Source of the DNA: Armatimonadota bacterium
GTDB lineage: Bacteria; Armatimonadota; UBA10988
Assembly: GCA_016235455.1 (NCBI GenBank)
Contig: JACRKZ010000102.1
Coordinates: 7,744-71,743 of the forward strand
DNA length: 64,000 nucleotides
Direction: 5' to 3'
The notes beneath the pieces were generated by a model. That model was not told the origin of the DNA. It ran no database searches and saw only the letters and a list, made by a program, of their open reading frames with translations. Shown here in pieces: positions 13,621 through 28,064 of this stretch (the first letter of the stretch is position 1; each line of letters opens with the position of its first letter). Made by a program: the position numbers and the translations under genes.

Positions 13621-14382
13621 CTACCCTTCCGCGCCAAGCGGCACCAACTGCACCGACACGCCGCCATCCACCACCAGCCGCGCGCCAGTCACGTTGGCCG
13701 CGTCAAGGGAGGCGAAGTACAGCACCGCCGCCGCCACGTCGTCGGCACTCGCGGGCTCGCCAAGCGGGGCATTGGCCCGCCGCCGCGCGGCGACCTCGGG
13801 GTCCAGTGTCGCCCAGCGCTCGGTGAGGATGTAGCCCGGCGCCACGGTGTTCACGCGGATGCCGTGCGGCGCCAGGTCCAGCGCCATGGCCCGCGTCAGC
13901 GCGTCGATAGCGCCCTTGGAGGCGCAGTAGGCCGTGCGCCCGCGCACCGGCCGCTCGGCCGTGTTGGAGCTGACATTGACGATCGCGCCTCGCGTGCTCT
14001 GGTCGATCATGCGCCGCGCCGCAGCCTGTGCGCAGCGGTAGTAGCCCAGCACGTTGACCGCCATGACCGCCTCGAGCAGCTCGTCATCGACGTCTACGAA
14101 CGTCGGACCCAGGCCCAGATGGGCCGCGTTGTTGACCAGCACGTCCACCCCACCCAGCTCGCGGTCGACGATGTCGAACAGTGTTCGGACTCCGCACGCC
14201 GTGCCGAGGTCGGCGACGGCCGGCACCGCGCCGGGCACGCTGGCCACGGCGGCGTCGACATGGGCCGGGTCGGTGCCGTTGATGGCCACCCGCGCGCCCT
14301 CGGCGGCGAAACGCCGGGCAATGCCCAGACCGGTGTTGCGCGAGGAGCCAGTGACCACCACGCGCGCGCCGTCAAAGCGCAT
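13621..14382 (-). CDS. Short-chain dehydrogenase/reductase (SDR) family oxidoreductase
   Basis: TGSSRNTGLG cofactor-binding glycine motif, NNAA, and the catalytic S...YCASK (YxxxK) motif. 253 aa. Confidence 0.85.
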   Translation of the reverse strand: MRFDGARVVVTGSSRNTGLGIARRFAAEGARVAINGTDPAHVDAAVASVPGAVPAVADLGTACGVRTLFDIVDRELGGVDVLVNNAAHLGLGPTFVDVDDELLEAVMAVNVLGYYRCAQAAARRMIDQSTRGAIVNVSSNTAERPVRGRTAYCASKGAIDALTRAMALDLAPHGIRVNTVAPGYILTERWATLDPEVAARRRANAPLGEPASADDVAAAVLYFASLDAANVTGARLVVDGGVSVQLVPLGAEG

Positions 14383-14383
14383 A

Positions 14384-15553
14384 TCAGGTCTCCTTCATCC
14401 ACGGCACCGCGTCGGGCGGGCGGATCTCGGTCAGCGTGCCCACGTAGTGCCGCAGGTTGCGCCGCTCGTAGGGATGCTGGGCGATGGCTTCCAGGTTCAG
14501 ATCCAGGCCCAGGCCGGGCGCCGTGGGGATGAGCATCTCGCCGGCGGCGAAGCGCACGTCCTCGGTAGTGACATCGCCACGCCAGGGGACATCGGTGTTC
14601 ATCGTCTCCAGCAGCCAGAAGTTGGGCACGCAGGCGGCCAGATGCAGCGTGGCCGCGTTGGCCACCGGGCCGATGGGGTTGTGCGGGCAGACCACGCGGC
14701 TGTAGGTTTCGGTCATGGCGGCGATCTTGCGCAACTCGCCGATGCCGCCCACATGGCTGACATCGGGCTGGAGGATGTCGGCGCAGCCCTGCTCCAGGTA
14801 GGTGCGCGCATCCCACCGCGAGTAGAGCCGCTCGCCGCCGGCGATGGGCACCCGGCTGCGGCGCACCACCTCCGCCATGCCCTCGGGGTGGTCGGGCATG
14901 ATCGGCTCCTCGAACCATGAGATGTCGAAGTCCTCCAGCGCGTGGGCGATGCGAATGGCCGTCGGCACGTCGAACCGGCCGTGGCCCTCGATGAGGATGT
15001 TGACCTCCGGCCCGACCGCCTCGGCGACCGCCGCCACACAGGCGATGGCCTGCCGCAGCTCGGCCTTCTCGATGGTGCGGTAGGCGGAGCCGAAGGGGTC
15101 CCACTTGAGCCCGCGGAAGCCCTGGTCGACCGCGATGCGGGCTTTTGCAGCAAACTCCTCGGGCGTCTTGGCCGGCGAGAACCAGCCGTTGGCGTAGCAC
15201 GGCACGCGGTCACGGCAGCGGCCGCCGAGCAACTGCCAGACCGGCACGCCGAGAGCCTTGCCCTTGATGTCCCAGAGCGCCATCTCGACACCCGACAGAG
15301 CGGTCATCAGCACCGGGCCGCCGCGCCAGTAGCTGTCGCGGTAGCACTCGTGCCAGATGGACTCGATGTCGTGCGGGTCGCGGCCGATGAGGTGGCGCTC
15401 CAACTCCTGCACCGCGGCCGCGGCCGTCGGCTCGCGCATCTCCAGCGTCGCCTCGCCGATGCCGTGCAGACCCTCGTCGGTCATCACCCGCACAAACACC
15501 CAGTTGGCGCGGTAGCAGTGGCAGAGGTAGGTCTCCAGGGCCGTGATCTTCAT
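14384..15553 (-). CDS. Enolase-superfamily sugar-acid dehydratase, D-galactonate dehydratase family (DgoD/ManD-like)
   Basis: MKITALETY...VFVRVMTDEGLHGIGEAT, ALWDIKGK, PVWQLLGG, IAGGERLYSRWD and ILQPDVSHVGGI closely track E. coli DgoD motifs. Its stop is adjacent to the SDR start and its start overlaps the IclR stop. Confidence 0.85.
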   Translation of the reverse strand: MKITALETYLCHCYRANWVFVRVMTDEGLHGIGEATLEMREPTAAAAVQELERHLIGRDPHDIESIWHECYRDSYWRGGPVLMTALSGVEMALWDIKGKALGVPVWQLLGGRCRDRVPCYANGWFSPAKTPEEFAAKARIAVDQGFRGLKWDPFGSAYRTIEKAELRQAIACVAAVAEAVGPEVNILIEGHGRFDVPTAIRIAHALEDFDISWFEEPIMPDHPEGMAEVVRRSRVPIAGGERLYSRWDARTYLEQGCADILQPDVSHVGGIGELRKIAAMTETYSRVVCPHNPIGPVANAATLHLAACVPNFWLLETMNTDVPWRGDVTTEDVRFAAGEMLIPTAPGLGLDLNLEAIAQHPYERRNLRHYVGTLTEIRPPDAVPWMKET

Positions 15554-18572: not shown

Positions 18573-21500
18573 TCACTTGCCCAGCGGCGTTCCCTCGCTG
18601 ATCACCGTGACCTGGGCGCGCGCTCTCACGCCCGCCGGTGCCTCGGCGGCGAACGTCAGGGCGTTGGTGCCCGGCGCGAGGCTCGGCACCACGCCGCGCG
18701 GCGTCACATGCGCGATGACCGCGCCGCGCTCATCGCGCATGGTAGCCTCGCCGGTCCCCTCGTACTCCAGGTACTGGCCGCTCTCCAAGGTGACCGGGAA
18801 GCTCAGCGCCTGGCCCGCCACCGTTACCGTCGGGTTGGTCAGTTTGACCTTGAGCACGGGCAGCGCCCTGACCGCGCTGAGGTAGCAGGTGATCGGCTCA
18901 CCAGGCGGCAGGTTGTTGGCCCACAGGTTGAACGCCCCCACCCGACCCCGCACCAACGGGCTGCGACCGACCTCGCAGGCCCCGCCATACGGCCAGAAGT
19001 AGTCCTGATGGCGCTGGGCATCACGCTCGCGCAGCAGCAGTTCCACGTAGCGCCAGCCGACGAAGTCGATGTCCACGTAGTGGTCGTCCCAGGCCGTGTA
19101 GTCCTCGCGGGTGTTGTTGAGCTGGAGGTTCAGCAACTCGCCCTTCCCATCGCCATGGATCCACACGCCCAGCGCGCCACACGCGCTCATGTTCAGCGGC
19201 GGCGTGAAGGCCTGGGCCAGTTTGGTCCACGCGCCGCGGCGCTCGGCCGTGGTGTTCGTGGCGGTCAGCCGGCCGCTCACGCTGCCCGCGCGCGCGGGCT
19301 CGGTGGCCGTGGTCAGGCTCTGCGTCGCGCCCGCCGCCTGCGGGGTGAACCGCTCGGGGCGGGTGAAGTCGGTGACCAGCACCCCGTCAGGCGAATCGTA
19401 GGGCTGCACGGCATACAACGCCTCGATCCGCAGCCGCAGCGGCTGGGCGGCGTGGCGATTGATCACCTGCCAGCGGCCGGAGCCGTCGTCGAGCGCGGTC
19501 ACGCGATGGTGCGCGTAGTCCGTGGGTCGCAGCTGCCAGGCGCCGCCCGCGGCCGGCGCGAGCCGGAACTGCTCGCCCGGCGCGCGCAGTCTGGCCAGCA
19601 CCTGCGGCGCGAACGCGCGGTCCAGCCGCAGCCGCTCATAGCGCCCGAGCAGGGCCAGGTACTCGTCCTGGCGCGCATTGGGCGGAGTGGGCCCGGCCTC
19701 GATGCCCTGCAGGCTTGACGAGTGGTCCCAGCCCAGGCACTTGCCGGCGAAGTACTCCATGTCCTCGGGGAACATGCCCGCGTGGTCGGCCGACGGGCCG
19801 TTGAGCACCCACCAGCCCATGTGGCCGGGCAGCATCTCGCCCGTCGCGTAGGTGGCCAGCTCGGCGCAGTGCAGGTCGGTGAAGCGGTTGTAGCCCCACA
19901 GCGGATGGTCCCAGGCGCCCACCCGCGAATGGAACGGCCAGGCGCCCCACGAGCCCGAGCTGGACTCGACCAGCACGCGTCCCTTCAGCCGGCGGAAGAT
20001 GGCCTGCTTCATGACGGCCACCGCGTGCGCGGTCTTCATGCCCTCGGAGCCGTCCATGTAGATCATGTCGAACCCGCAGGTGTTGTAGACCTCGGCGATG
20101 CGCGCGGCCAGTTCATCGACCAGCGTGCTGCCCTCGTCGGGGATGTAGCAGCAGTAGCTGGCCAGCAGATGGTCCGTCGCGTCGCCCTGAGCATGCGCCG
20201 CCGGCCGGGTCCCCCACCGCCCGCGCGTGCAGCCGTTGAAGCCGTAGGGCGGCTGGCTGGCGATGCCGCTGTAGGCGATGATCTCGTCGCCGATCTGGAT
20301 GGTGTTGCCCGTGCTCATATCGCTCCAGAAGGTCTCCAGCCCTTCGGGCCGCTCGACGGTCGGGATCACCTTGTCGTTCGGGCCGATATCGCCGGCCAGC
20401 GTGAAATGGGCGTCCTTGGCCAGCCGCTTGTCGGGCACCGGCGCCACCCAGGGGTCGTCGACCTGGATGCACCCGGTGAGCGTATGCATGCCGGCCTTGA
20501 GCCCGGCCGCATGGACCTTGGCCACCACCTGCGCGAGCCCGGCCAGGCCGTGGGGGAACAGCGCCGGATTGGGCTCGTAGTGCCCCATGGTGCGCCACCA
20601 CGGGTGGAAGTGGATCTCGGCGAAGCCGCCGCGGCGGGCCAGGGCGATCCACTCGTCGACATTGGCCTCGGAGATCGTGGCGAACACGTATGAGCCGCGA
20701 TTCTCGGGCGCGTCGAGCGCGAACGGCCCGCCCAGCGGCGAGTACGGCAGCCCTTCGGCGCGTACGACGTCCTGCAGCACGCTCCTGATGGCCGCCTGCG
20801 GGCACGCGACCAGCGCCACCTTGGCGCCGACGAGGCCGTAGCGGCGCTCGCAGCGCGGCGTGAGCACGGCCGGCTCGCCGCCCTGCACCGCGGCCTCGAC
20901 CTGCAGGTTGAGCGGCACAGTGGCCGCGGCAAAGTCGGCGTTCACCGCCCAGGCTACGGAGGCGCTGGAGCGCTTGGCGCCGGCGAAGGCCACGCGCCCG
21001 AAGACCACCTGCTCGACCTGCGGGTCGCTGACCGACAGTAGCTCGCAGACCAGGTAGCGACCGCGGTCGGTGACCTTGACCCGCGCGCTGACGCCCGACC
21101 GACCAAAGGTGAAGCTGAGCACGCCGTCACGGTACCCGCAGGCGCTCGGCCGGAAGGTCGTCCCGCCACGCCGGATGCTGACGAAGTCGACGGCCGGCTG
21201 GCCACCATGGTCGCGGCCGGTGGCGCGGTCCACCAGCCCCACCACACGACCGCGCTGGTCGAGCAGCAGGCGCGCTGAGCGAGTCTCCAGGGTCACCGCG
21301 GGCTTGGCCGGAACCGTCGGCATCGGTGCGTAGGCGACGCTGGTCCGCTGTGGCGCGCCGGCCCGATAGTCCGCGAGCACCTGCTCGGGCGTCAGCGCGC
21401 GGTTGTAGAGCTTCACCTCGTCGATCAGGCCGGTATGGCCGGGCTGCTCACCGGCCCAGCGCCCGACCTGCAAGTCGCCCGTGGCTCCCACCGGATAGTC

Positions 21501-22046
21501 CCATTGGGCGGTGCCGACCTGCTTGCCATCGAGGTAGGTGGTCACCGTGGGCCGCGCGAAGGTGGCGGCCAGATGGTACCAGCGACCCGGCTCGAAATGC
21601 CCGAGGCCGACGCCGACCTCGGTCCAGTCGGTCATGGCCATCGGCGCGCGGCCAGGCTTGCCCATGCGGAACGAGCAGTCCTGGTCGGAGACGAACAGCA
21701 TGAAGCCGCCGGGGCACCAGTTGCCCGTGGTGAGGATGTTGGGGTAACGCCCGCCACGTTCCCAACAGACCCACGCCTCGACGGTCAGCGCGGCGGCACC
21801 ATCGAGCCCGGCCGGACAGGGGATGGACACCCAAGCGCCGTTGCCACCGAAGCGCAGTGCCGTGCCAAACGCGCCGCGCACCCACGCCGCGCCGTGGACC
21901 TCACCGTCATTGCCCTGACCCGAGCCGTCAACCACGACGTCACCGGCGCCATCGTCGAAGCGCCAGTCGCCCAGCAGCCCTGGGGTCTGGGCGCGGAGCA
22001 GCCCGCACGCCAGCAGCAGCAACAGAACGGCGCTCCGGTTGGCCAT
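18573..22046 (-). CDS. Large secreted LamG (concanavalin-like) domain protein with glycoside-hydrolase-like central region
   Basis: ORF 18573..22127 trimmed to MANRSAVLLLLLACGLLRAQT (cat verified at 22044-22046). The N-terminal LamG_3-type domain ends in the characteristic IDEVKLYNRALTPEQV. About 1150 aa. Confidence 0.6.
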   Translation of the reverse strand: MANRSAVLLLLLACGLLRAQTPGLLGDWRFDDGAGDVVVDGSGQGNDGEVHGAAWVRGAFGTALRFGGNGAWVSIPCPAGLDGAAALTVEAWVCWERGGRYPNILTTGNWCPGGFMLFVSDQDCSFRMGKPGRAPMAMTDWTEVGVGLGHFEPGRWYHLAATFARPTVTTYLDGKQVGTAQWDYPVGATGDLQVGRWAGEQPGHTGLIDEVKLYNRALTPEQVLADYRAGAPQRTSVAYAPMPTVPAKPAVTLETRSARLLLDQRGRVVGLVDRATGRDHGGQPAVDFVSIRRGGTTFRPSACGYRDGVLSFTFGRSGVSARVKVTDRGRYLVCELLSVSDPQVEQVVFGRVAFAGAKRSSASVAWAVNADFAAATVPLNLQVEAAVQGGEPAVLTPRCERRYGLVGAKVALVACPQAAIRSVLQDVVRAEGLPYSPLGGPFALDAPENRGSYVFATISEANVDEWIALARRGGFAEIHFHPWWRTMGHYEPNPALFPHGLAGLAQVVAKVHAAGLKAGMHTLTGCIQVDDPWVAPVPDKRLAKDAHFTLAGDIGPNDKVIPTVERPEGLETFWSDMSTGNTIQIGDEIIAYSGIASQPPYGFNGCTRGRWGTRPAAHAQGDATDHLLASYCCYIPDEGSTLVDELAARIAEVYNTCGFDMIYMDGSEGMKTAHAVAVMKQAIFRRLKGRVLVESSSGSWGAWPFHSRVGAWDHPLWGYNRFTDLHCAELATYATGEMLPGHMGWWVLNGPSADHAGMFPEDMEYFAGKCLGWDHSSSLQGIEAGPTPPNARQDEYLALLGRYERLRLDRAFAPQVLARLRAPGEQFRLAPAAGGAWQLRPTDYAHHRVTALDDGSGRWQVINRHAAQPLRLRIEALYAVQPYDSPDGVLVTDFTRPERFTPQAAGATQSLTTATEPARAGSVSGRLTATNTTAERRGAWTKLAQAFTPPLNMSACGALGVWIHGDGKGELLNLQLNNTREDYTAWDDHYVDIDFVGWRYVELLLRERDAQRHQDYFWPYGGACEVGRSPLVRGRVGAFNLWANNLPPGEPITCYLSAVRALPVLKVKLTNPTVTVAGQALSFPVTLESGQYLEYEGTGEATMRDERGAVIAHVTPRGVVPSLAPGTNALTFAAEAPAGVRARAQVTVISEGTPLGK

Positions 22047-22132
22047 GGTCGGCCCTCCTGTGTCGGGTGGAGGCCTTCGGCGGTGGGCTGGCAGGACCTT
22101 CTGACGGCCGTGCCCGCGACGTGGCATAATGG

Positions 22133-24190
22133 GTGGCGGCTTGGAGGCGACGAGCAGTGCTTCAGTACCTGCGACTAGAGAACGTCGGGCCGGCGCCCGA
22201 GATGGCGTTCGACTTCGCGCCGCGGCTCAATCTGTTGACCGGCGACAACGGGCTGGGCAAGAGCTTCGTGCTGGATGTCGCTTGGTGGGCGCTGACGGGG
22301 ACGTGGGCCAATGGCATCGCGATCCCTCCGGCGGAGGCTGCAGCCCCAGCGATCGCCTTTCGGCACACGTCTGCCGACGCGGGCGCAACGCGGCCCACGC
22401 TCGCTGTCAAGCGCGCTGACTCGGTTGGGCTGGACTGGCCGCAGCTAGCCAGAGCACGACTGCTCGCACACGGCCATGACCAGAACGAGTGGGGGTCCCT
22501 TCTCCCGGCACTGCTAGAGCAACAGGCAGGCGACACCGACCTGTTGGCGACCGGCCGCGCGTGGCTCATGGGCCGCGAAGACCAGGCGGGCTGGAGCCAG
22601 GTCTGGCAGACGCTGCTAGCCATGCAGCCGGGCGACGCCGACCTGTTGGCGACCGGCCGCACGTGGCTCACCGGCCGCGAGAACCGGGCGGAGTGGGCGC
22701 ACGTCTACCAGACGCTGCTGGCGGCGCAGCCGGGCGACGCCGAGCTGTTTGCGACCGGCCGCGCGTGGCTCGCGGGCCGCGACGACCGGGCGGAGTGGAG
22801 CTACGTCTGGCAGACGCTGCTGGCGGCGCAGGCGGGCGACGCCGAACTGTTGGCGACCGGCCGCGCGTGGCTCGCGGGCCGCGAGGACCGGGCGGAGTGG
22901 AGCCACGTCTGGCGGAGGCTGTTGGCGGCGCAGCCGGGCGACACCGACCTGTTGGCGACCGGCCGCGCGTGGCTCATGGGGCGCGAGGAGCAGGCGGGCT
23001 GGAGCCAGGTCTGGCAGACGCTGCTAGCGACGCAGCCGGGCGACACCGGCCTGCCAATGGGCGAGCTGGCGAAACTACTCGGCCAACTAACCCACGTGGG
23101 CGGACGCGCAGAGACCGTGCACGGCGGCCGAGCGGATCTTGCAGGCGGGTCTGCGTCCAGAGGGCCCCGTGCATCAGCTGGCCCGCAAGACCGCCTTGGC
23201 CTGTACGATCGCGCCACGCAGCAATGGAGGATCGGCAAGGCGTTACCCGGCCACGCTGGCCTTGTCGTCTACATGCGGGTGGACGGTGGGTTCGCAGTTT
23301 GGGATCCGCAGCGCAACGCGGTCAGCGCCGACGGGCCGGGGCGGCCACCAGCGTTTGTGTTCACAGCCGATGAGCTGTGGTCGGGCAACTCAGCCTGCGA
23401 AGGCCTGGTACGCGACTGGACGTCTTGGCAGCGCGAAGGAAACAACGCGTTTCAGCTCCTCTCGAGAGTGCTCGAAGAGCTGGCGCCCGCCGCAGAGGAG
23501 CCGCTGGTGCCCGGTGAGCCGCGACGCATAGCCGTGGGCGACCCCAGAGACTACCCGACTCTGCGGATGCCGTACGGCGAAGACGTTCCGGTGGTGCATG
23601 TCTCCGCAGGCATGAAGCGCATTATCAGTCTGGCCTATCTGCTAGTCTGGACTTGGCGTGAACACCAGGAGATATGCCAGTTGCTCGGGCAGCGGCCAAC
23701 TGACGAACTGGTCCTTCTCGTCGATGAGGTCGAGACGCACCTGCATCCACGTTGGCAACGCTGTATCGTACCCGCCCTTCTGACGGTAATGGACACCATC
23801 ACCGCCGGTTGTCGACTTCAGGCCATCGTGGCCACCCACTCGCCGCTGGTCCTCGCCTCGATGGAAGACACCTTCGACACGAGCACCGACCAGGTCTTCG
23901 ACCTGGAGCTGACCGACGGCCAGGTCGAGGTGCGCCGGCTGCCCTACGAGCCGCTGGGCACCGCCGACGACTGGCTGACCTCCGACGCCATCGGCTTGCG
24001 CTCGGCGCGCGGCTCCTTGGTGCAGGAGGCGCTGCTCGAGGAACTGGCGGCAGCCTGGAACGATCCCGCGCTCACCGAACCGCGTTACCGCGAGCTGTCG
24101 GAGAAGCTGGCGTCGTCGTCCATGCGTGACACCGACCCTGTGCGCAGCCGCTGGCTGGCGCTGGGCGAGCGCCGAGGGTTCGTGTCGTGA
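22133..24190 (+). CDS. AAA_15/AAA_21-type (SMC-head-like) ATPase, PtuA-like, with internal 34-aa TPR-like tandem repeats
   Basis: N-terminus LQYLRLENVGP...LLTGDNGLGKSF (beta-strand plus Walker A). C-terminus LLVDEVETHLHPRWQ (Walker B with THLHP) and IVATHSPLV (H-loop). Five full 34-aa repeats lie between. GTG start. GTGA overlap with the next gene. Confidence 0.6.
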   Translation: MAAWRRRAVLQYLRLENVGPAPEMAFDFAPRLNLLTGDNGLGKSFVLDVAWWALTGTWANGIAIPPAEAAAPAIAFRHTSADAGATRPTLAVKRADSVGLDWPQLARARLLAHGHDQNEWGSLLPALLEQQAGDTDLLATGRAWLMGREDQAGWSQVWQTLLAMQPGDADLLATGRTWLTGRENRAEWAHVYQTLLAAQPGDAELFATGRAWLAGRDDRAEWSYVWQTLLAAQAGDAELLATGRAWLAGREDRAEWSHVWRRLLAAQPGDTDLLATGRAWLMGREEQAGWSQVWQTLLATQPGDTGLPMGELAKLLGQLTHVGGRAETVHGGRADLAGGSASRGPRASAGPQDRLGLYDRATQQWRIGKALPGHAGLVVYMRVDGGFAVWDPQRNAVSADGPGRPPAFVFTADELWSGNSACEGLVRDWTSWQREGNNAFQLLSRVLEELAPAAEEPLVPGEPRRIAVGDPRDYPTLRMPYGEDVPVVHVSAGMKRIISLAYLLVWTWREHQEICQLLGQRPTDELVLLVDEVETHLHPRWQRCIVPALLTVMDTITAGCRLQAIVATHSPLVLASMEDTFDTSTDQVFDLELTDGQVEVRRLPYEPLGTADDWLTSDAIGLRSARGSLVQEALLEELAAAWNDPALTEPRYRELSEKLASSSMRDTDPVRSRWLALGERRGFVS
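22529..23038 (+). repeat. Five tandem near-identical 102-bp coding repeats (34-aa units, consensus D-x-D/E-L-L-A-T-G-R-A-W-L-x-G-R-E-x-x-A-x-W-S-x-V-W-Q-T-L-L-A-x-Q-P-G) inside the ATPase gene
   Basis: Direct reading: gacctgttggcgaccggccgcgcgtggctc... recurs with period 102 nt. Units 1 and 5 are nearly identical at the DNA level. A partial unit precedes from about 22454. Confidence 0.85.
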
Positions 24191-24753
24191 TCCGTGTCAA
24201 ACCAGCACCAGAACCGCCGTCGTTCGACGAGCGAGTTCGCCAACCCGGCTTGGCGCAGTTGCCTGAGCTGAAGCCGCACTGGCGCCGCTGTCTACCCGAC
24301 CTGCTCGCCGCGTACCAGCACATCTGCGCCTACTCGTGCTTCTACATCCATCCGGTCGCCGGCGCGCGTACCGTCGAGCACTTCGGGCCGAAGTCGGCGT
24401 CGCCCGAGCTGGCCTACGAATGGTCGAACTACCGCCTGGTGTGCAGCCTGATGAACAGCCGCAAACAGGCCTTCGACGATGTCCTCGACCCGTTTGAGAT
24501 CGAGAACGGGTGGTTCGTGCTCGACTTCGTGAATTTTGAGGTCCATCCGGACGTTGAGCTGGCCATTGACCACGCCGCCATCCAGGCCACAATCGACCGG
24601 CTCGGACTCAACGACGCGCCCTGCCCGAGCACGCGCCAGCAGGAGTACGAGATGTATGAGCGCGGCGACGCCTCCTGGCGGCATCTCTGTCGCGTCAGCC
24701 CCTTCGTCGCCGCCGAAGTGGAGCGCCAAGGCCTGCGCCGGGCCGGCGACTGA
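24187..24753 (+). CDS. HNH-like nuclease, TIGR02646/PtuB-like
   Basis: HICAYSCFYIHPV...TVEHFGPKS...NYRLVCSLMNSRK matches the Cys-x-Tyr-x-Cys ... (I/V)EHF-PKS ... N-x-x-K pattern of the TIGR02646 HNH-like family that partners AAA ATPases in Septu systems. GTG start overlaps the ATPase stop. Confidence 0.5.
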   Translation: MIRVKPAPEPPSFDERVRQPGLAQLPELKPHWRRCLPDLLAAYQHICAYSCFYIHPVAGARTVEHFGPKSASPELAYEWSNYRLVCSLMNSRKQAFDDVLDPFEIENGWFVLDFVNFEVHPDVELAIDHAAIQATIDRLGLNDAPCPSTRQQEYEMYERGDASWRHLCRVSPFVAAEVERQGLRRAGD

Positions 24754-24769
24754 TTCGTCGGAGACACCC

Positions 24770-25897
24770 ATGCCCAGGCTCAAATGGACCCGCCACGCCG
24801 ACCTGGCCATCTCGCGCGGCTGCTCCGTGCGGCGCGAGGAATACCTCGACCACATGACCTTCGCCGCCAATGCTCGGCCGCTGTTCACCGAGATCTTCGG
24901 CCCGCTCATTGGCCTCAAGGAGGAATGGGAGGAGCAGGGCGCCAGCCCCGAGGAACTCGACTTCTCCGCCTTTCGCTACCGCTGCCCGCTGACCGCGGGC
25001 CTGCCGATCAACACCGGTTGGCTCGGCGGGCCGGCGCCCGAGACGCTGTCCGAGACCGACGACTTCCTGACCTACCGCGATGCCATGGGCCGCACCATGA
25101 AGCTGGCCAAGGGCGTCTCGACGCTGGCGCTGCCCATGGACTGGCCCGTGCGCGGCATGGACGACTGGCTGGCCATCCGGCACCACTACGCCTTCGATGA
25201 GGCTCGTTTCGGCGCCGGCTGGGAGCAGATGGCCCGTGACCACCTGGCCGCCGGCCGCGCCGTGACCGTGTCCCTGCCCGGCGGCTACGACACGTCGCGG
25301 CAGCTCATGGGCGACGAGGCGGCCTGCCTGGCGTTTGCCGACCAGCCGGAGCTGATCGCCGACATCCTGCAGACCGTCGGCGCGATGGTCCAGCGGGTGC
25401 TCGACCGCGTGTCGGCGGCGGTGCAGGTAGACATCCTCAGTGTGCACGAGGACATGGCTGGCCGGAGCGGGCCGATGGTCGGGCCGCGGCAGGTGCGTGA
25501 GTTCATCGCACCCTACTACCGCCGCGTCTGGGACATGCTCGCCGAGCGGGGCGCGCGTCTGTTCGACCAGGATTCCGATGGCAACATGAACCCGGTCATC
25601 GACGCCTTCCTCGACGCGGGCGTCAACGTCATGCACCCCATGGAGCCCGCCGCCGGCATGGACATCGTGCAGGTGCGCCAGCGCTATGGCCGCCGACTGG
25701 CGTTCTATGGCGGCATCGACAAGCATGTGCTGCGCCGCTCGCACGAGGAGATCGACGCCGAGTTGGCGTACCGGGTCCCGCCGCTGCTGGCCTCGGGCGG
25801 GTGCGTGTTCGCGCTGGACCACCGCATTCCCAACGGCACGCCGCTGGGCAACTATCGGTACTATGTGCAGCGGATGTGGGAGATGCTGGGAGATTAG
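24770..25897 (+). CDS. Uroporphyrinogen-decarboxylase (URO-D)-like TIM-barrel protein (MtaA/methyltransferase-like family)
   Basis: ORF 24536..25897 trimmed to the ATG at 24770, preceded by GGAGA 8 nt upstream. Length about 375 aa. Resemblance to the URO-D family (RLAFYGGIDKHVL C-terminal region) is moderate. Confidence 0.4.
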   Translation: MPRLKWTRHADLAISRGCSVRREEYLDHMTFAANARPLFTEIFGPLIGLKEEWEEQGASPEELDFSAFRYRCPLTAGLPINTGWLGGPAPETLSETDDFLTYRDAMGRTMKLAKGVSTLALPMDWPVRGMDDWLAIRHHYAFDEARFGAGWEQMARDHLAAGRAVTVSLPGGYDTSRQLMGDEAACLAFADQPELIADILQTVGAMVQRVLDRVSAAVQVDILSVHEDMAGRSGPMVGPRQVREFIAPYYRRVWDMLAERGARLFDQDSDGNMNPVIDAFLDAGVNVMHPMEPAAGMDIVQVRQRYGRRLAFYGGIDKHVLRRSHEEIDAELAYRVPPLLASGGCVFALDHRIPNGTPLGNYRYYVQRMWEMLGD

Positions 25898-26007: not shown

Positions 26008-27606
26008 ATGGAGATCGAGATGATATCGTGTCGGACTGGGCTCGCGACGGTGGTTCTGGTCGCGACACTCTCGCCGCTGTCAGCGCAGAACAGCAGCAGT
26101 ACCGGCGGCATCTGCGGCGTCCCGCCGCGCGAAGCCCTGTTGATACTCCGAGAGGCTGGGATGCCGTGGGCACCGTGCAAGGGTTGGGCCGACGTCATGG
26201 CCGCCGGCGGCGGCGAGCCCGGGCTTGACCTGTCGAGCTGGGGCAGCGGACGCACCTGGCGCACGCTCAAGGGCTGGAATCAGGATCTGACGGTCACTCA
26301 GCTCGGTAGCTGGGCGCAGACCTTGCGTGCGCCGGAGCGCGTGGCCAGCATCGAGCGACTCGGAGCCACGGGGCTCCCACAGGCCGTGGACGCACTGGCA
26401 GTGCTGCTTGACTCCAGCGATGTGGGCATCGCCCCGGCCGCAGGCAAGGCCTTGCGCCGACTTGCGGAACGGGGCTTGGTGAAGCCTGACCGGGTGGCGG
26501 ACTGGCTACAGGTCGGCGCCAAGCAAGCCGCAGCGATCAGCGTGGCGGCAGGGGTGAAGGACGAGACTGGCGTTATGGTAGATCGTGTCGCCAGCCTCGT
26601 CCCAGACCTGTTGCTGCGGGCAGACACCACGACCCTGGGTTGTGCGGCGCTGGCGCTGTACCGCAACGGCCGAAGCGAGCAGGTCGATGCTCTGCTCGGG
26701 TCGGGCGCGAAGGGCAGAGACAGGGACCTCGCCTATCAGGCACTCGCCGACATCGCCGGTGACGTGCGCCCCAACGACCTTCACTGGCTGCCCGGCACAT
26801 GGCAGAGCAAGACACGCGCCGATGAGCCTGACGCGTTGGCAGCGGCGGGGCTCCTGCTCCAGGCCAGCCTGGCCGCCCGCGCCGACCCGGCCACCGAGCT
26901 CGCAAGCGCCGCCCTGCTGGACGACCTACTGGCCGCGGACCGACCTGTTTGGCTGCGCGTGCACGTGGCTGACCTGATAGCGCGGCAGGGCCTCCTTGCC
27001 GACTGCCGGCCGCGCCCCGGCGGCGCCACGCTAGGCGAGCACGCCAGCCAGACCCCGGCTGAGATAGTGGCCAGCGGCACGCTGCCAACCGAGTCGATTT
27101 GGTGGCTTGTGTACCACTTCAGTGTGCCCTGCGCGCTCCGCGCGGGGTGGCCACTACCGAACCACACAGGGATCCTCTCATGCAAACCGACGGCAGAGAA
27201 CACCACCTGCGCCGCGCAATGCCGGGCCATCGGCAAGCTGGCCAAGGAGCGAGGTGAGCACATCGTCGCCCGGTACGTCGAGTTGAACGCAGGCACCCAG
27301 CATGCCGCCTGCGGTGTGTTGCTCCGCGACTCATCGTGCGACAAAGCCTGGGATCAGGAGTTCGTGCTCGTTCGCCTGGCCCACACCGCTTGTGCCGAGG
27401 CAAGGACGTTCGCGCGCTGCGTCGAGCTCAACTACGTCAAGCCCGACACGGTCGGCGCCATTGACGTACTTGCATTGTCGTACAGCTGGCACAACGGCAG
27501 GTACGAACTGGTGACGACGGCAAGCGGCGCTGTTGCGCGGAACGCTTTCGCGCGTATGGTCACAAACAATCTCGGCCACCTGAACTGGAAGGAGACGGAC
27601 ACATGA
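26008..27606 (+). CDS. Secreted hypothetical protein with HEAT/PBS-lyase-like repeat and Cys-rich C-terminal region
   Basis: Signal peptide MISCRTGLATVVLVATLSPLSAQ. PQAVDALAVLLDSSDVGIAPAAGKALRRL is a HEAT-like repeat. The C-terminal 150 aa hold about 10 Cys. The gene and upstream spacer are lower in GC than their surroundings. Confidence 0.4.
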   Translation: MEIEMISCRTGLATVVLVATLSPLSAQNSSSTGGICGVPPREALLILREAGMPWAPCKGWADVMAAGGGEPGLDLSSWGSGRTWRTLKGWNQDLTVTQLGSWAQTLRAPERVASIERLGATGLPQAVDALAVLLDSSDVGIAPAAGKALRRLAERGLVKPDRVADWLQVGAKQAAAISVAAGVKDETGVMVDRVASLVPDLLLRADTTTLGCAALALYRNGRSEQVDALLGSGAKGRDRDLAYQALADIAGDVRPNDLHWLPGTWQSKTRADEPDALAAAGLLLQASLAARADPATELASAALLDDLLAADRPVWLRVHVADLIARQGLLADCRPRPGGATLGEHASQTPAEIVASGTLPTESIWWLVYHFSVPCALRAGWPLPNHTGILSCKPTAENTTCAAQCRAIGKLAKERGEHIVARYVELNAGTQHAACGVLLRDSSCDKAWDQEFVLVRLAHTACAEARTFARCVELNYVKPDTVGAIDVLALSYSWHNGRYELVTTASGAVARNAFARMVTNNLGHLNWKETDT

Positions 27607-28064
27607 GTGGTACTGCACCGACAGTGATCAGCCGCCGTGCGGGCCGCAAGCGCCTCACCAGCGCTCTCGGCCTGGGCTGCGTCGTTGCGGCGGTCTGCGG
27701 CCTGGCGGCGAGTCTCTATAACCGCGACCACGACATTGTGCGGCTCGCGCAGGCCATCCTGCCAGCCTTCCTGCCCGCGCTCTCGGCCTTGGTGCCACTG
27801 GTGCTGACCCCGCAGAAGGACGACGATGAGCCGCTACCTGATGGGGCCTTGTCGCTGGCCCTGGGTATCTGCGTCATCTACTCGACCGCCTGGTGTGTGC
27901 TGGCCGCGTGCTCCTACACGCTCGATGATCTCGGAGTCGGGCAGCGGCCCCACTTCGACAGCGCCGTGGCGCTGCTCTCAACCATCGGCCAGTCGGTGGT
28001 GGTCGGCATGGTGGTCACGAGTTTGGGCGGCGCGGCGAAGGCCGTCACTCCGCCGGGCAAGTAG
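27603..28064 (+). CDS. Small integral membrane protein (3-4 predicted TM helices)
   Basis: ATGA overlap with the preceding gene. Hydrophobic segments LGLGCVVAAVCGLAASLY, ILPAFLPALSALVPLVL, LALGICVIYSTAWCVLAA and LLSTIGQSVVVGMVVTSL. Confidence 0.4.
   Translation: MSGTAPTVISRRAGRKRLTSALGLGCVVAAVCGLAASLYNRDHDIVRLAQAILPAFLPALSALVPLVLTPQKDDDEPLPDGALSLALGICVIYSTAWCVLAACSYTLDDLGVGQRPHFDSAVALLSTIGQSVVVGMVVTSLGGAAKAVTPPGK

What the first reader, a model, noticed from the sequence alone, without database searches (positions are those of the whole stretch)
22133..24753. Septu-like two-gene defence candidate (AAA_15/21 ATPase + TIGR02646-type HNH nuclease) inserted between CAZyme operons
A GTG-started ATPase is coupled by a GTGA overlap to a 188-aa protein.
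- The ATPase has an SMC-head-like N-terminus (LRLENVGP...LLTGDNGLGKS) and a C-terminal LLVDEVETHLHP Walker B with ATHSP H-loop.
- The small protein carries the HNH-like pattern CAYSC...TVEHFGPKS...NYRLVC...NSRK.

This architecture matches PtuA/PtuB of Septu and retron-associated PtuAB. The pair sits at a divergent junction next to the LamG gene, at the start of a stretch (22.1-28.1 kb) with slightly lower GC than the flanking operons. That is consistent with horizontally acquired defence cargo inside a polysaccharide-utilisation region.
Basis: partly seen in the sequence, partly recalled or inferred. Interest (0 to 1): 0.7.

Follow-up and report, generated by a model that had tools for sequence, protein, structure and literature searches.

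The report
Septu defence operon with grafted repeat array
This is a genuine two-gene Septu anti-phage system (PtuA ATPase plus PtuB HNH nuclease) in an Armatimonadota genome. Its ATPase carries a 265-residue array of helical repeats otherwise seen only in the sensor arms of NLR-like STAND immune proteins.

Summary
Two overlapping genes (GTGA at 24187-24190) encode a PtuA ABC-type ATPase and a PtuB HNH nuclease. PADLOC models match both over their full length (PtuA E=4.7e-143, PtuB E=3.1e-64). The catalytic motifs are intact, and the nearest solved folds are E. coli Septu and retron I-A PtuA. There is no reverse transcriptase or ncRNA, so this is stand-alone Septu type I.

- The start is GTG 22157 (677 aa), not 22133.
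- TIGR02646 is hit only below its cut-off.
- The 22-28 kb stretch is not one island. The URO-D-like gene after ptuB has host-like composition and is syntenic in a relative.

PtuA residues 73-337 (window 22373-23167) are an in-frame insertion absent from all 119 other listed homologues, including the syntenic closest relative. It holds about 6.5 tandem 34-aa TPR-like helical hairpins (102-nt period).

These repeats are homologous (E down to 4e-174) to the C-terminal arrays of large nSTAND5-type STAND NTPases. None of the 151 repeat-bearing proteins examined has a PtuA core.

I infer, untested, that the insertion is a grafted sensor module. The system is a new variant of a known kind and of moderate interest.

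The parts
22101..22130 (+). Promoter-like site (CTGACG-18-CATAAT, TG-extended) upstream of ptuA, in the divergent intergenic region shared with the LamG gene
   Evidence: Consensus scan, (4 sites found against 0.2 expected in shuffles). This is a pattern match only, and promoter rules in Armatimonadota are not established.
22144..22148 (+). Shine-Dalgarno-like GGAGG, 8 nt before the GTG start at 22157
   Evidence: Sequence read directly.
22157..24190 (+). ptuA, a 677-aa ABC/SMC-head-type ATPase of Septu type I
   Evidence: PADLOC PDLC00307 E=4.7e-143 and PDLC00270 E=2.3e-115. Pfam AAA_21 and AAA_15 are above their cut-offs. It is identical to the NCBI 677-aa protein P0001. The AF2 core has pLDDT >90. 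The best Foldseek hits are PtuA 9n6b/9n69/8eea/8ee4.
22241..22264 (+). Walker A motif GDNGLGKS (PtuA res 29-36)
   Evidence: Invariant in a 71-sequence alignment. Position.
22373..23167 (+). Lineage-specific in-frame insertion (PtuA res 73-337): a flexible linker, about 6.5 helical-hairpin repeats, then a second flexible linker
   Evidence: It is absent from all 119 other listed homologues (396-456 aa). The syntenic relative L010 lacks about 798 nt exactly here. In the AF2 model it forms 14 helices (res 94-313) between strands E65-70 and E344-351, with low-confidence tethers at 76-92 and 313-340. It has no PADLOC or Pfam hit.
22433..22525 (+). Degenerate leading repeat unit (res 93-123, DWPQLARARLL...EWGSLLPALLEQQ)
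   Evidence: Read by eye against the unit consensus. It is helical in the AF2 models.
22526..23035 (+). Five tandem 102-nt (34-aa) units with consensus xGDxDLLATGRAWLxGREDRAEWSxVWQTLLAxQ
   Evidence: TRF finds period 102, 5.1 copies, 87% matches. The repeat finder family D1 agrees. Units share 79-93% nt and 68-91% aa identity. The array is homologous to STAND C-terminal arrays.
23036..23098 (+). Partial trailing repeat or capping helix (res 294-314)
23603..23620 (+). ABC signature-like motif SAGMKR (res 483-488)
   Evidence: S483, G485 and R488 are invariant. Assigning it as the signature motif is an inference from its position before Walker B.
23714..23749 (+). Walker B and following motif, LLVDEVETHLHP (res 520-531; D523, E524)
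   Evidence: Invariant D523, E524, H528 and P531. It aligns to the Walker B region of retron Ec78 PtuA and related solved AAA-family ATPase chains (9vkz, 22bu).
23831..23845 (+). H-loop ATHSP (res 559-563; H561)
   Evidence: H561 is invariant.
24017..24175 (+). C-terminal three-helix extension of PtuA (res 621-673), the expected docking site for PtuB
   Evidence: Helices H621-634, H641-653 and H661-673 in the AF2 model. The docking role is inferred from solved PtuAB complexes, in which two PtuA C-terminal extensions and three PtuB helices form a nine-helix bundle (PMC12819146).
24187..24753 (+). ptuB, a 188-aa HNH (beta-beta-alpha-Me) nuclease whose start overlaps the ptuA stop (GTGA)
   Evidence: PADLOC PDLC00348 E=3.1e-64, residues 1-185 of 188. 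A homologue profile hits PtuB 8ee7_C at E=4.9e-5. TIGR02646 scores 28 bits, below its cut-off. The overlap is read.
24325..24465 (+). HNH core of PtuB: C47, C51, H65, N81, C86, N90, K93
   Evidence: All are invariant in 30 homologues. H65 aligns with the HNH histidine region of solved PtuB chains.

Best explanation
The locus is a stand-alone Septu type I system.

**Shown**
- ptuA and ptuB are translationally coupled.
- PtuA is an ABC-type ATPase with intact Walker A, signature-like, Walker B and H-loop motifs and a three-helix C-terminal extension.
- PtuB is an HNH nuclease with an intact H-N-N core.

**Inferred from characterised Septu and retron PtuAB**
- PtuA dimers oligomerise and clamp PtuB through their C-terminal helices.
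- The nuclease stays silent in uninfected, ATP-replete cells.
- Infection releases or activates it.
- PtuB then cuts phage DNA or a host tRNA, which stops phage replication.

**Special here (shown)**
- A surface beta-hairpin of the N-terminal ATPase lobe carries a 265-aa insertion.
- The insertion is two flexible tethers holding about 6.5 TPR-like 34-aa helical hairpins.
- The hairpins are homologous to the C-terminal repeat arrays of nSTAND5-type STAND (NLR-like) NTPases.

**Special here (inferred)**
- The array was copied from such a gene and expanded by tandem duplication.
- It acts as a ligand-binding (phage-protein) sensor.
- It couples recognition to the PtuA nucleotide or oligomer state, and so to PtuB activation.

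**My sub-confidences**
- Septu identity: about 0.95.
- The insertion is real: about 0.9.
- The sensor role: about 0.4.
For: **Septu identity**
- PADLOC matches PtuA at 4.7e-143 and PtuB at 3.1e-64. Pfam AAA_21 and AAA_15 are above cut-off.
- The motifs are invariant.
- The best Foldseek hits are PtuA of retron I-A and E. coli Septu. The PtuB profile hits 8ee7_C.
- The same 4-nt-overlapping gene pair recurs in varied contexts in L007, L011, L012 and L013.
- There is no Rfam hit or tRNA in the window, and the neighbours are LamG and URO-D-like genes.

**Mobility**
- PtuAB GC3 is 0.79-0.84 against 0.91-0.93 in the neighbours.
- dS between the window and L010 is 1.06 (PtuA) and 0.84 (PtuB), against 0.43 for the adjacent URO-D gene.
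- PtuAB sits at a different site in L007, which shares an 89%-identical MR_MLE gene.
- Plasmid-borne homologues exist.

**The insertion is real**
- It is in frame, and the ATPase core still folds with pLDDT >90.
- An independent Logan assembly is 100% identical across repeat 5, the linker, the ATPase half and ptuB.

**Origin and role of the insertion**
- HMMER against 1.84 billion representatives gives 350 hits, 87 of them below 1e-30. The top hits are 1000-2000-aa proteins with the repeats in their C-terminal part.
- These proteins carry nSTAND_NTPase5, and 77 of 151 share one STAND N-terminal module.
- Folded alone, the insertion gives pLDDT 83.6, and its nearest folds are TPR superhelices.
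- Core positions (L6, G10, R11, W13, L14, W23, V26, W27, L30, L31) are conserved. The variable positions track those of the STAND units (rho 0.50).
- dN/dS between units is about 1, against 0.25-0.28 for the rest of PtuAB.
- Literature: STAND C-terminal TPR-like arrays are phage-protein sensors, and one such sensor is shared with a non-STAND system, Avs7/Dsr1 (PMC13581612).
Against: - No experiment exists. The sensor role rests only on homology to arrays whose own ligands are unknown, and those STAND proteins have no PADLOC hit.
- Only one instance of the architecture was seen, in one MAG and in runs that may belong to the same study.
- dN/dS of about 1 over 34-codon units is equally compatible with relaxed constraint after recent duplication.
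- The 5' junction of the insertion and the repeat copy number rest on a single short-read MAG assembly.
- Characterised Septu needs no such domain. Its activation has been ascribed to a fall in ATP or to a phage tail fibre.
- TIGR02646 and NCBIfam PtuA/PtuB equivalogs are far below their cut-offs, so this subfamily is distant from the studied proteins. Its substrate (DNA or tRNA) cannot be predicted.
Confidence: 0.5

Rival explanations
1. This is an ordinary Septu whose PtuA tolerates a selectively neutral passenger insertion. A repeat segment was captured by illegitimate recombination into a permissive surface loop and amplified by slippage or unequal crossing-over. It has no role in sensing, and the system works exactly like insertion-free relatives.
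For: - dN/dS between units is about 1.
- The architecture was seen once only.
- The closest syntenic allele works without the insertion.
- The tethers are predicted to be disordered.
- Related STAND clusters show repeat copy-number polymorphism, so these arrays are intrinsically unstable.
Against: - The reading frame and all hydrophobic core positions are kept in every unit.
- The array folds confidently as a solenoid.
- A degenerate leading unit and a trailing cap suggest a complete domain rather than raw slippage.
- The variable positions coincide with those of the STAND arrays.
Confidence: 0.3
2. The insertion is functional but not a foreign-ligand sensor. It acts as an auto-inhibitory lid or an oligomerisation scaffold for the PtuA assembly, in the way that the coiled-coil, helical-flap and N-terminal elements of retron-type PtuA reshape the assembly.
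For: - Retron PtuA acquired extra structural elements that change its oligomeric state and partner binding (PMC12819146; PMC12673091).
- TPR-like solenoids commonly mediate protein-protein assembly (fold matches).
- The flexible tethers would let the array reach neighbouring subunits.
Against: - The homologous arrays sit where STAND proteins carry their sensors, not their oligomerisation modules.
- Fast divergence between units fits an interface with a changing partner better than a fixed self-interface.
Confidence: 0.12
3. The long PtuA is an assembly chimera or an inactivated gene, so the locus is a decaying remnant.
For: - The source is a short-read MAG.
- The Logan contig breaks inside the repeat array, so the copy number and the 5' junction are not independently confirmed.
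Against: - There is no frameshift or stop over 2034 nt.
- The 3' junction is reproduced at 100% identity in an independent assembly.
- The insertion splits the ATPase exactly in a loop between two strands, and all catalytic motifs are intact.
- ptuB is intact and coupled to ptuA.
Confidence: 0.05
4. The pair is a housekeeping ATPase-nuclease (for example in DNA repair) rather than a defence system.
For: - The pair lies next to a host-like URO-D gene in the same order in two related organisms.
- There are no other defence genes within 6 kb, and no integrase or flanking repeats.
Against: - The best matches are defence-specific PtuA and PtuB models and structures.
- The pair's position differs in the relative L007, and the LamG orthologues of L001-L006 have no PtuAB beside them.
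- Codon composition is atypical and synonymous divergence is elevated relative to the neighbour.
- Homologues occur on plasmids.
Confidence: 0.03

Closest known systems
Septu type I (PtuA/PtuB), e.g. E. coli Septu, PDB 8EE4/8EE7/8EEA
   Same: - Two-gene operon of an ABC-type ATPase and an HNH nuclease.
- Full-length PADLOC PtuA1 and PtuB1 matches.
- Same fold.
- Conserved ATPase and HNH motifs, and the three-helix C-terminal extension that clamps PtuB.
- No reverse transcriptase.
   Different: - Sequence similarity to the solved proteins is low: phmmer E=2e-4 to 8ee4 and about 11-18% identity in the structural alignments.
- This PtuA has a 265-aa repeat insertion in lobe I that no listed homologue or PADLOC model has.
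- The trigger and the substrate are unknown.
Retron type I-A effectors PtuAB (Retron-Eco7/Ec78, Eco4/Ec83)
   Same: - Homologous ATPase and HNH pair. The top Foldseek and PDB sequence hits are these chains.
- They set a precedent that PtuA acquires extra structural elements to change how the system senses infection.
   Different: - There is no RT or ncRNA here.
- NCBIfam retron PtuA scores 53 bits against a cut-off of 500, and PtuB 27 against 150.
- The added element here is a TPR-like repeat array, not an N-terminal extension, coiled coil or helical flap.
Antiviral STAND NTPases (Avs/NLR-like), specifically the nSTAND5-type family (Pfam PF25199) with C-terminal 34-40-aa helical repeats
   Same: - The repeat units are homologous, with up to 52% identity in the large (over 1,000 aa) proteins and E down to 3.7e-174.
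- They share the same conserved core positions.
- They are TPR-like solenoids.
- The arrays are expandable, with copy-number polymorphism.
   Different: - PtuA has no STAND NTPase, winged-helix or effector module. Its ATPase is of the ABC/SMC-head type.
- The array is internal, inserted in a loop, rather than C-terminal.
- It has only about 6.5 units.
Sensor sharing between unrelated defence systems (Avs7 and Dsr1 share a TPR sensor for the major capsid protein)
   Same: The principle is the same: a helical-repeat sensor module typical of STAND proteins appears in a defence protein of another class (PMC13581612).
   Different: That case is proven experimentally. It involves a different sensor family and a terminal fusion. 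Here the ligand is unknown and the module is an internal insertion.
Other ABC-ATPase defence proteins (AriA of PARIS, GajA/OLD, LmuB)
   Same: They share the AAA_15/AAA_21 ATPase head. Weaker PADLOC hits are AriA at 2.6e-25 and LmuB at about 1e-5.
   Different: Their partner genes and effectors differ (Toprim, AriB, LmuA). PtuA and PtuB models score over 100 orders of magnitude better.

Membership tests
Septu (PtuA/PtuB) | PtuA: an ABC-type ATPase (AAA_15/AAA_21) matching PtuA profile models | tested here: met
   PADLOC PDLC00307 E=4.7e-143 and PDLC00270 E=2.3e-115. Pfam AAA_21 scores 64.9 bits (cut-off 27) and AAA_15 44.1 bits (cut-off 32.1).
Septu (PtuA/PtuB) | PtuB: an HNH-type nuclease matching PtuB profile models | tested here: met
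   PADLOC PDLC00348 E=3.1e-64 over residues 1-185. The homologue profile hits solved PtuB 8ee7_C at E=4.9e-5.
Septu (PtuA/PtuB) | The two genes are adjacent on one strand, in the order ptuA then ptuB | tested here: met
   4-nt GTGA overlap at 24187-24190. The same arrangement occurs in L007, L010, L011, L012 and L013.
Septu (PtuA/PtuB) | Intact catalytic residues (Walker A Lys, Walker B Asp/Glu, HNH His/Asn) shown to be essential in studied systems | tested here: met
   K35, D523/E524 and H561 in PtuA, and H65, N81 and N90 in PtuB, are invariant in the alignments. Their essentiality in E. coli systems is reported in PMC13096335 and PMC12819146.
Septu (PtuA/PtuB) | Fold of PtuA resembles solved Septu PtuA | tested here: met
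   Foldseek gives 8eea_D at E=5.5e-9 and 8ee4/8sux at E about 1e-7, all with prob 1.00.
Septu (PtuA/PtuB) | Protects against phage infection | not testable with these tools
   Needs heterologous expression and phage challenge.
TIGR02646 (retron-system putative HNH endonuclease subfamily, NCBIfam) | Score at or above the curated cut-off (52.15 bits) | tested here: not met
   28.0 bits, E=1.9e-6, residues 39-92 only. This indicates a related HNH core, but the protein is not a member by NCBI's threshold.
Retron type I-A PtuAB | Adjacent reverse transcriptase and msr/msd ncRNA, plus the equivalog models NF041760 and NF041761 | tested here: not met
   The flanking genes are LamG and URO-D-like. There is no Rfam hit in 64 kb. 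NF041760 scores 53 bits against 500, and NF041761 27 against 150.
STAND NTPase (nSTAND5, PF25199) | A STAND P-loop NTPase module N-terminal to the repeats | tested here: not met
   PtuA has no PF25199 hit. Only the repeat array is shared.
TPR (tetratricopeptide repeat, Pfam clan) | Sequence match to TPR profile models | tested here: not met
   No TPR family hit at E<=1. Only the 34-aa period and a weak fold resemblance to TPR superhelices are seen (best E=4.4e-3), so 'TPR-like' describes the shape only.
Defence island / mobile element cargo | Neighbouring defence genes, an integrase, or flanking repeats | tested here: not met
   The three downstream genes have no PADLOC hits. There is no tRNA, and only chance-level flanking repeats. 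Horizontal origin is supported only by composition, excess dS and variable position.

The most novel reading that the evidence does not exclude
The repeat array is a recently grafted and still-expanding NLR-type sensor. It retargets a Septu ATPase-nuclease to a specific phage protein.

This would be the first case of a STAND-family sensor module transplanted into the loop of an ABC/SMC-head defence ATPase. It would show that Septu activation can be driven by direct protein recognition. It would also show that the lobe-I beta-hairpin of PtuA is a natural, engineerable port for sensors.
Probability: 0.35. Interest if true: 0.7.

Novelty: new variant of a known kind. Interest (0 to 1): 0.5.

Why it matters
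How stand-alone Septu senses infection is unsettled. ATP depletion, a phage tail fibre and tRNA or DNA targeting have all been reported.

A natural PtuA carrying a discrete, tethered, NLR-type repeat module makes the question testable. One can delete or swap the module, pull down its ligand and select escaper phages.

It would also extend a recently recognised principle, that sensor modules move between unrelated immune systems, to ABC-ATPase systems. And it would mark a permissive insertion site for engineering.

If the insertion turns out to be a passenger, the locus is simply one more Septu operon in an uncultured Armatimonadota genome.

Tried and rejected
- **Word-index search with the insertion alone.** It gave only 2 hits, because low-complexity words swamp the candidate list. 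The full HMMER scan was needed.
- **Look-up of the exact 677-aa PtuA in the contig index.** It is not on record, so the 5' junction could not be checked in an independent assembly.
- **Metagenome scan with exact peptides of PtuA.** 91 pattern matches were found, but none was a relative.
- **PDLC00270 as a known PtuA with an insert at the same loop.** Rejected. Its extra 214 positions are an N-terminal extension, and the query N-terminus aligns to profile positions 215-276.
- **URO-D-like gene as a third system component.** This was considered because it starts 17 nt after ptuB both here and in L010. It was rejected for three reasons.
  - It has host-like GC3 (0.915).
  - It is 89.5% identical between the two organisms, against 62-75% for PtuAB.
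  - It is absent next to PtuAB in L007, L011, L012 and L013.
- **Defence-island idea for 22-28 kb.** There are no PADLOC hits for the URO-D-like, 532-aa and 153-aa products.
- **Cap4/DUF4297-like N-terminal effector in the repeat-bearing STAND proteins.** This was recalled from a GGxxAxSGFxYQ-like motif. Pfam gave no hit at E<=1, so it remains unsupported.
- **Flanking direct or inverted repeats, tRNA or ncRNA as signs of a mobile element.** None were found.
- **Phage genomes.** No homologue of the PtuA core.
- **afdb50 fold search.** The library was not available.
- **tblastx of regions upstream of LamG orthologues against the window.** There are no shared genes, so no clean empty-site comparison exists for this exact position.

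Full report
**1. The observation**

They overlap by GTGA. Every quoted motif is present.

The start needs correcting to GTG 22157. Three things support this:
- NCBI's own model of this protein is 677 aa (P0001, 100% identical, 'MAG: Armatimonadetes bacterium', contig 72,590 bp).
- GGAGG lies 8 nt upstream of 22157.
- Nucleotide similarity to the syntenic relative L010 begins exactly at 22157.

A promoter-like site lies at 22101-22130.

**2. Identity of the two proteins**

- PADLOC models give PtuA1 at E=4.7e-143 and 2.3e-115, and PtuB1 at E=3.1e-64 over residues 1-185 of 188.
- Pfam AAA_21 and AAA_15 are above their cut-offs. PtuB has no Pfam hit.
- NCBIfam hits are all far below their cut-offs: TIGR02646 28 bits against 52, retron PtuA 53 against 500, retron PtuB 27 against 150. 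This is therefore a distant, non-retron subfamily.
- In a 71-sequence alignment the following are invariant: Walker A (G29-S36), S483/G485/R488, D523/E524 and H561.
- In 30 PtuB homologues C47, C51, H65, N81, C86, N90 and K93 are invariant.
- A profile of these PtuB homologues finds solved Septu PtuB (8ee7_C, E=4.9e-5) and retron PtuB chains.
- An AlphaFold2 model of PtuA has mean pLDDT 83, with the core above 90. Its best Foldseek matches are retron I-A PtuA (9n6b, 9n69) and E. coli Septu PtuA (8eea, 8ee4, 8sux), followed by SMC and Rad50 heads.
- The model ends in three helices (621-673). This matches the C-terminal extension that clamps PtuB in solved complexes (PMC12819146).
- The flanking genes are a LamG-domain protein and a URO-D-like protein. 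There is no Rfam family or tRNA in the 64 kb.

The locus is stand-alone Septu type I.

**3.

All 119 other listed PtuA homologues are 396-456 aa. This one is 677 aa. Alignment places a 265-residue insertion between FRHTS (res 68-72) and RASAGPQ (res 338-344), which is window 22373-23167.

The insertion contains five clean tandem units of 102 nt (34 aa). TRF reports period 102, 5.1 copies and 87% matches. There is also a degenerate leading unit and a partial trailing one.

In the model it forms 14 helices in hairpins. It is attached by two low-confidence tethers (res 76-92 and 313-340) between strands 65-70 and 344-351 of the N-terminal ATPase lobe. Folded alone it gives pLDDT 83.6, and its nearest solved folds are TPR superhelices, though weakly (best E=4.4e-3). 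Pfam and PADLOC have no model for it.

**4. Where the repeats come from**

A full HMMER scan of 1.84 billion representatives with the insertion returned 350 proteins, 87 of them below 1e-30. The best hits are 1000-2000 aa long and carry the repeats in their C-terminal part.
- Five of six examined carry the Pfam 'Novel STAND NTPase 5' domain, though only one (P0245, 39 bits) scores above its 34-bit cut-off. One also has a C-terminal Fic domain.
- 77 of the 151 share one N-terminal STAND module. None has any similarity to the PtuA core.
- Ten mid-length hits have no PtuA match either.
- The unit consensus (..L...GRxWLxGRED..EW..VW..LL..) is the same in both sets. The positions that vary among the PtuA units are those that vary among 490 STAND units (Spearman 0.50, p=0.002). 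Three anchor positions were fixed by the extraction pattern.

So a repeat type otherwise seen only in the sensor-side arrays of one STAND family sits inside a PtuA. The one PADLOC PtuA model that is longer (PDLC00270) has an N-terminal extension, not an insertion at this loop.

**5. Is the insertion real?**

- It is in frame and stop-free, and it splits the ATPase at a loop without disturbing the predicted core.
- A Logan assembly of run SRR12113407 is 100% identical to window 22999-24832. This confirms the junction from repeat 5 through the linker and ATPase half to ptuB. A second run gives 99.9% over 23924-24936.
- The Logan contig ends inside the array, as expected for short reads. The 5' junction and the copy number therefore rest on the MAG alone.

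**6. Evolution and context**

*The syntenic relative L010.* This JGI contig has PtuA-PtuB-URO-D in the same order, with the same 17-nt gap before URO-D.
- Its PtuA is full length but lacks about 798 nt exactly at the insertion site.
- URO-D is 89.5% identical between the two, whereas PtuA is 63-75% and PtuB 74%.
- Synonymous divergence is 1.06 (PtuA core) and 0.84 (PtuB), against 0.43 for URO-D. dN/dS is 0.28, 0.25 and 0.15 respectively.
- The PtuAB alleles are therefore older than the split of their hosts, or have been exchanged.

*Composition.* PtuAB GC3 (0.79-0.84) is well below that of its neighbours (0.91-0.93). The insertion (0.87) is nearer to the host value.

*Other relatives.*
- In a Fimbriimonadaceae MAG (L007), a 53%/51%-identical PtuAB sits between an MR_MLE gene (89% identical to window 14384-15553) and an SDR gene. 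Those two genes are directly adjacent in the window.
- Other relatives place the pair beside sulfatases or unrelated genes.
- A 73%-identical LamG orthologue has no PtuAB nearby.
- Homologues at 39-42% identity lie in six PLSDB records: five plasmids or megaplasmids of Azotobacter (two records), Nostoc, Allocoleopsis and Azospirillum, and a 4.9-Mb Aeromonas caviae record that is chromosome-sized. None is found in phages.

*Selection within the array.* dN/dS among the five units is about 1 (range 0.2-2.5), but each comparison covers only 34 codons. This fits either diversification or relaxed constraint.

*Not an island.* The downstream genes have no defence-model hits. No integrase, tRNA or flanking repeats mark a mobile element.

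**7. Mechanism**

*Shown:* the gene pair, the motifs, the fold, and the repeat homology.

*Inferred from characterised systems:*
- PtuA dimers assemble. They form hexamers in E. coli Septu and tetramers in retron-released PtuAB.
- They hold PtuB through a shared helical bundle.
- Both ATPase and HNH motifs are needed for defence.
- The activated nuclease degrades phage DNA or cleaves tRNA-Tyr (PMC12819146, PMC13096335, PMC12673091).

*Inferred for this locus:* the tethered solenoid binds a ligand, most plausibly a phage protein, and transmits this to the ATPase assembly. Two published findings support the inference (PMC13581612). STAND C-terminal TPR-like arrays are the phage-protein sensors of Avs systems. 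One such sensor is shared with a non-STAND system (Avs7/Dsr1).

The rivals are a neutral passenger insertion, an auto-inhibitory or scaffolding element, an artefact or pseudogene, and a housekeeping role. They are weighed in the rival section.

**8. Comparison and verdict**

Membership in Septu is met on every testable criterion. Membership in TIGR02646 (by its cut-off), retron I-A, STAND and Pfam TPR is not met.

The locus is a new variant of a known kind because of the STAND-type repeat insertion. No paper in the held library links PtuA with tetratricopeptide-type repeats.

Interest is moderate. The Septu call itself is routine. The insertion is a single-instance but well-defined lead on how Septu-type systems could sense infection.

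Noticed in passing
Proteins P0245 and P0392-P0405 (one 90%-identity cluster of a repeat-bearing STAND protein): Full-length members are 1144, 1066, 1027, 949 and 871 aa long. They differ by multiples of 39 aa, which is the repeat period of that protein (a sixth, 1120-aa, member does not fit the series). This indicates repeat copy-number polymorphism among near-identical genes (period read).
   Followed up: partly
L007:6776-11565 against window 13621-15553: In a Fimbriimonadaceae MAG, a PtuAB pair plus an alpha/beta-hydrolase gene (about 2.8 kb) lies between the MR_MLE and SDR genes. Those two genes are directly adjacent in the window (junction near 14382-14384). This gives an occupied/empty site pair for Septu in related genomes.
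   Followed up: partly
window 26008-28064 (+): Two genes overlap by 4 nt: a 532-aa product with a signal-peptide-like N-terminus and a 153-aa product that looks hydrophobic (membrane-like by eye). They have no Pfam or PADLOC hits and low GC3 (0.80 and 0.84) compared with the neighbours. This may be a second acquired module of unknown function.
   Followed up: partly
window 24770-25897 (+); L010:1863-2999: A URO-D-family gene starts 17 nt after the ptuB stop both here and in L010, and no terminator-like site was found, so it may be co-transcribed with ptuAB. It is host-like in composition and 89.5% identical between the two organisms. A 39%-identical URO-D-like segment also lies downstream of the LamG orthologue in L005.
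   Followed up: partly
window 18573-22046 (-); L001-L006: The 1157-aa LamG/Laminin_G_3 protein has 64-75% identical orthologues in MAGs labelled Armatimonadota, Planctomycetota, Rhodopirellula and Gammaproteobacteria. They have no shared neighbours, which suggests horizontal spread of this large secreted protein. Several loci carry a second, 31-35% identical partial copy just downstream.
   Followed up: no
window 22383-22400 and 23311-23328: An 18-nt imperfect direct repeat (83%) has one copy at the start of the insertion and the other 145 nt beyond its end. It is probably chance, but it was noted as a possible trace of the recombination that created the insertion.
   Followed up: no
window 1-64000: There are no tRNA genes and no Rfam family at gathering threshold anywhere in the 64 kb.
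   Followed up: yes
P0246 (1407 aa): One repeat-bearing STAND protein carries a C-terminal Fic/DOC domain that matches PADLOC candidate-defence models (PDC-S04, SoFic). This is the only direct link found between this repeat family and annotated defence models.
   Followed up: no
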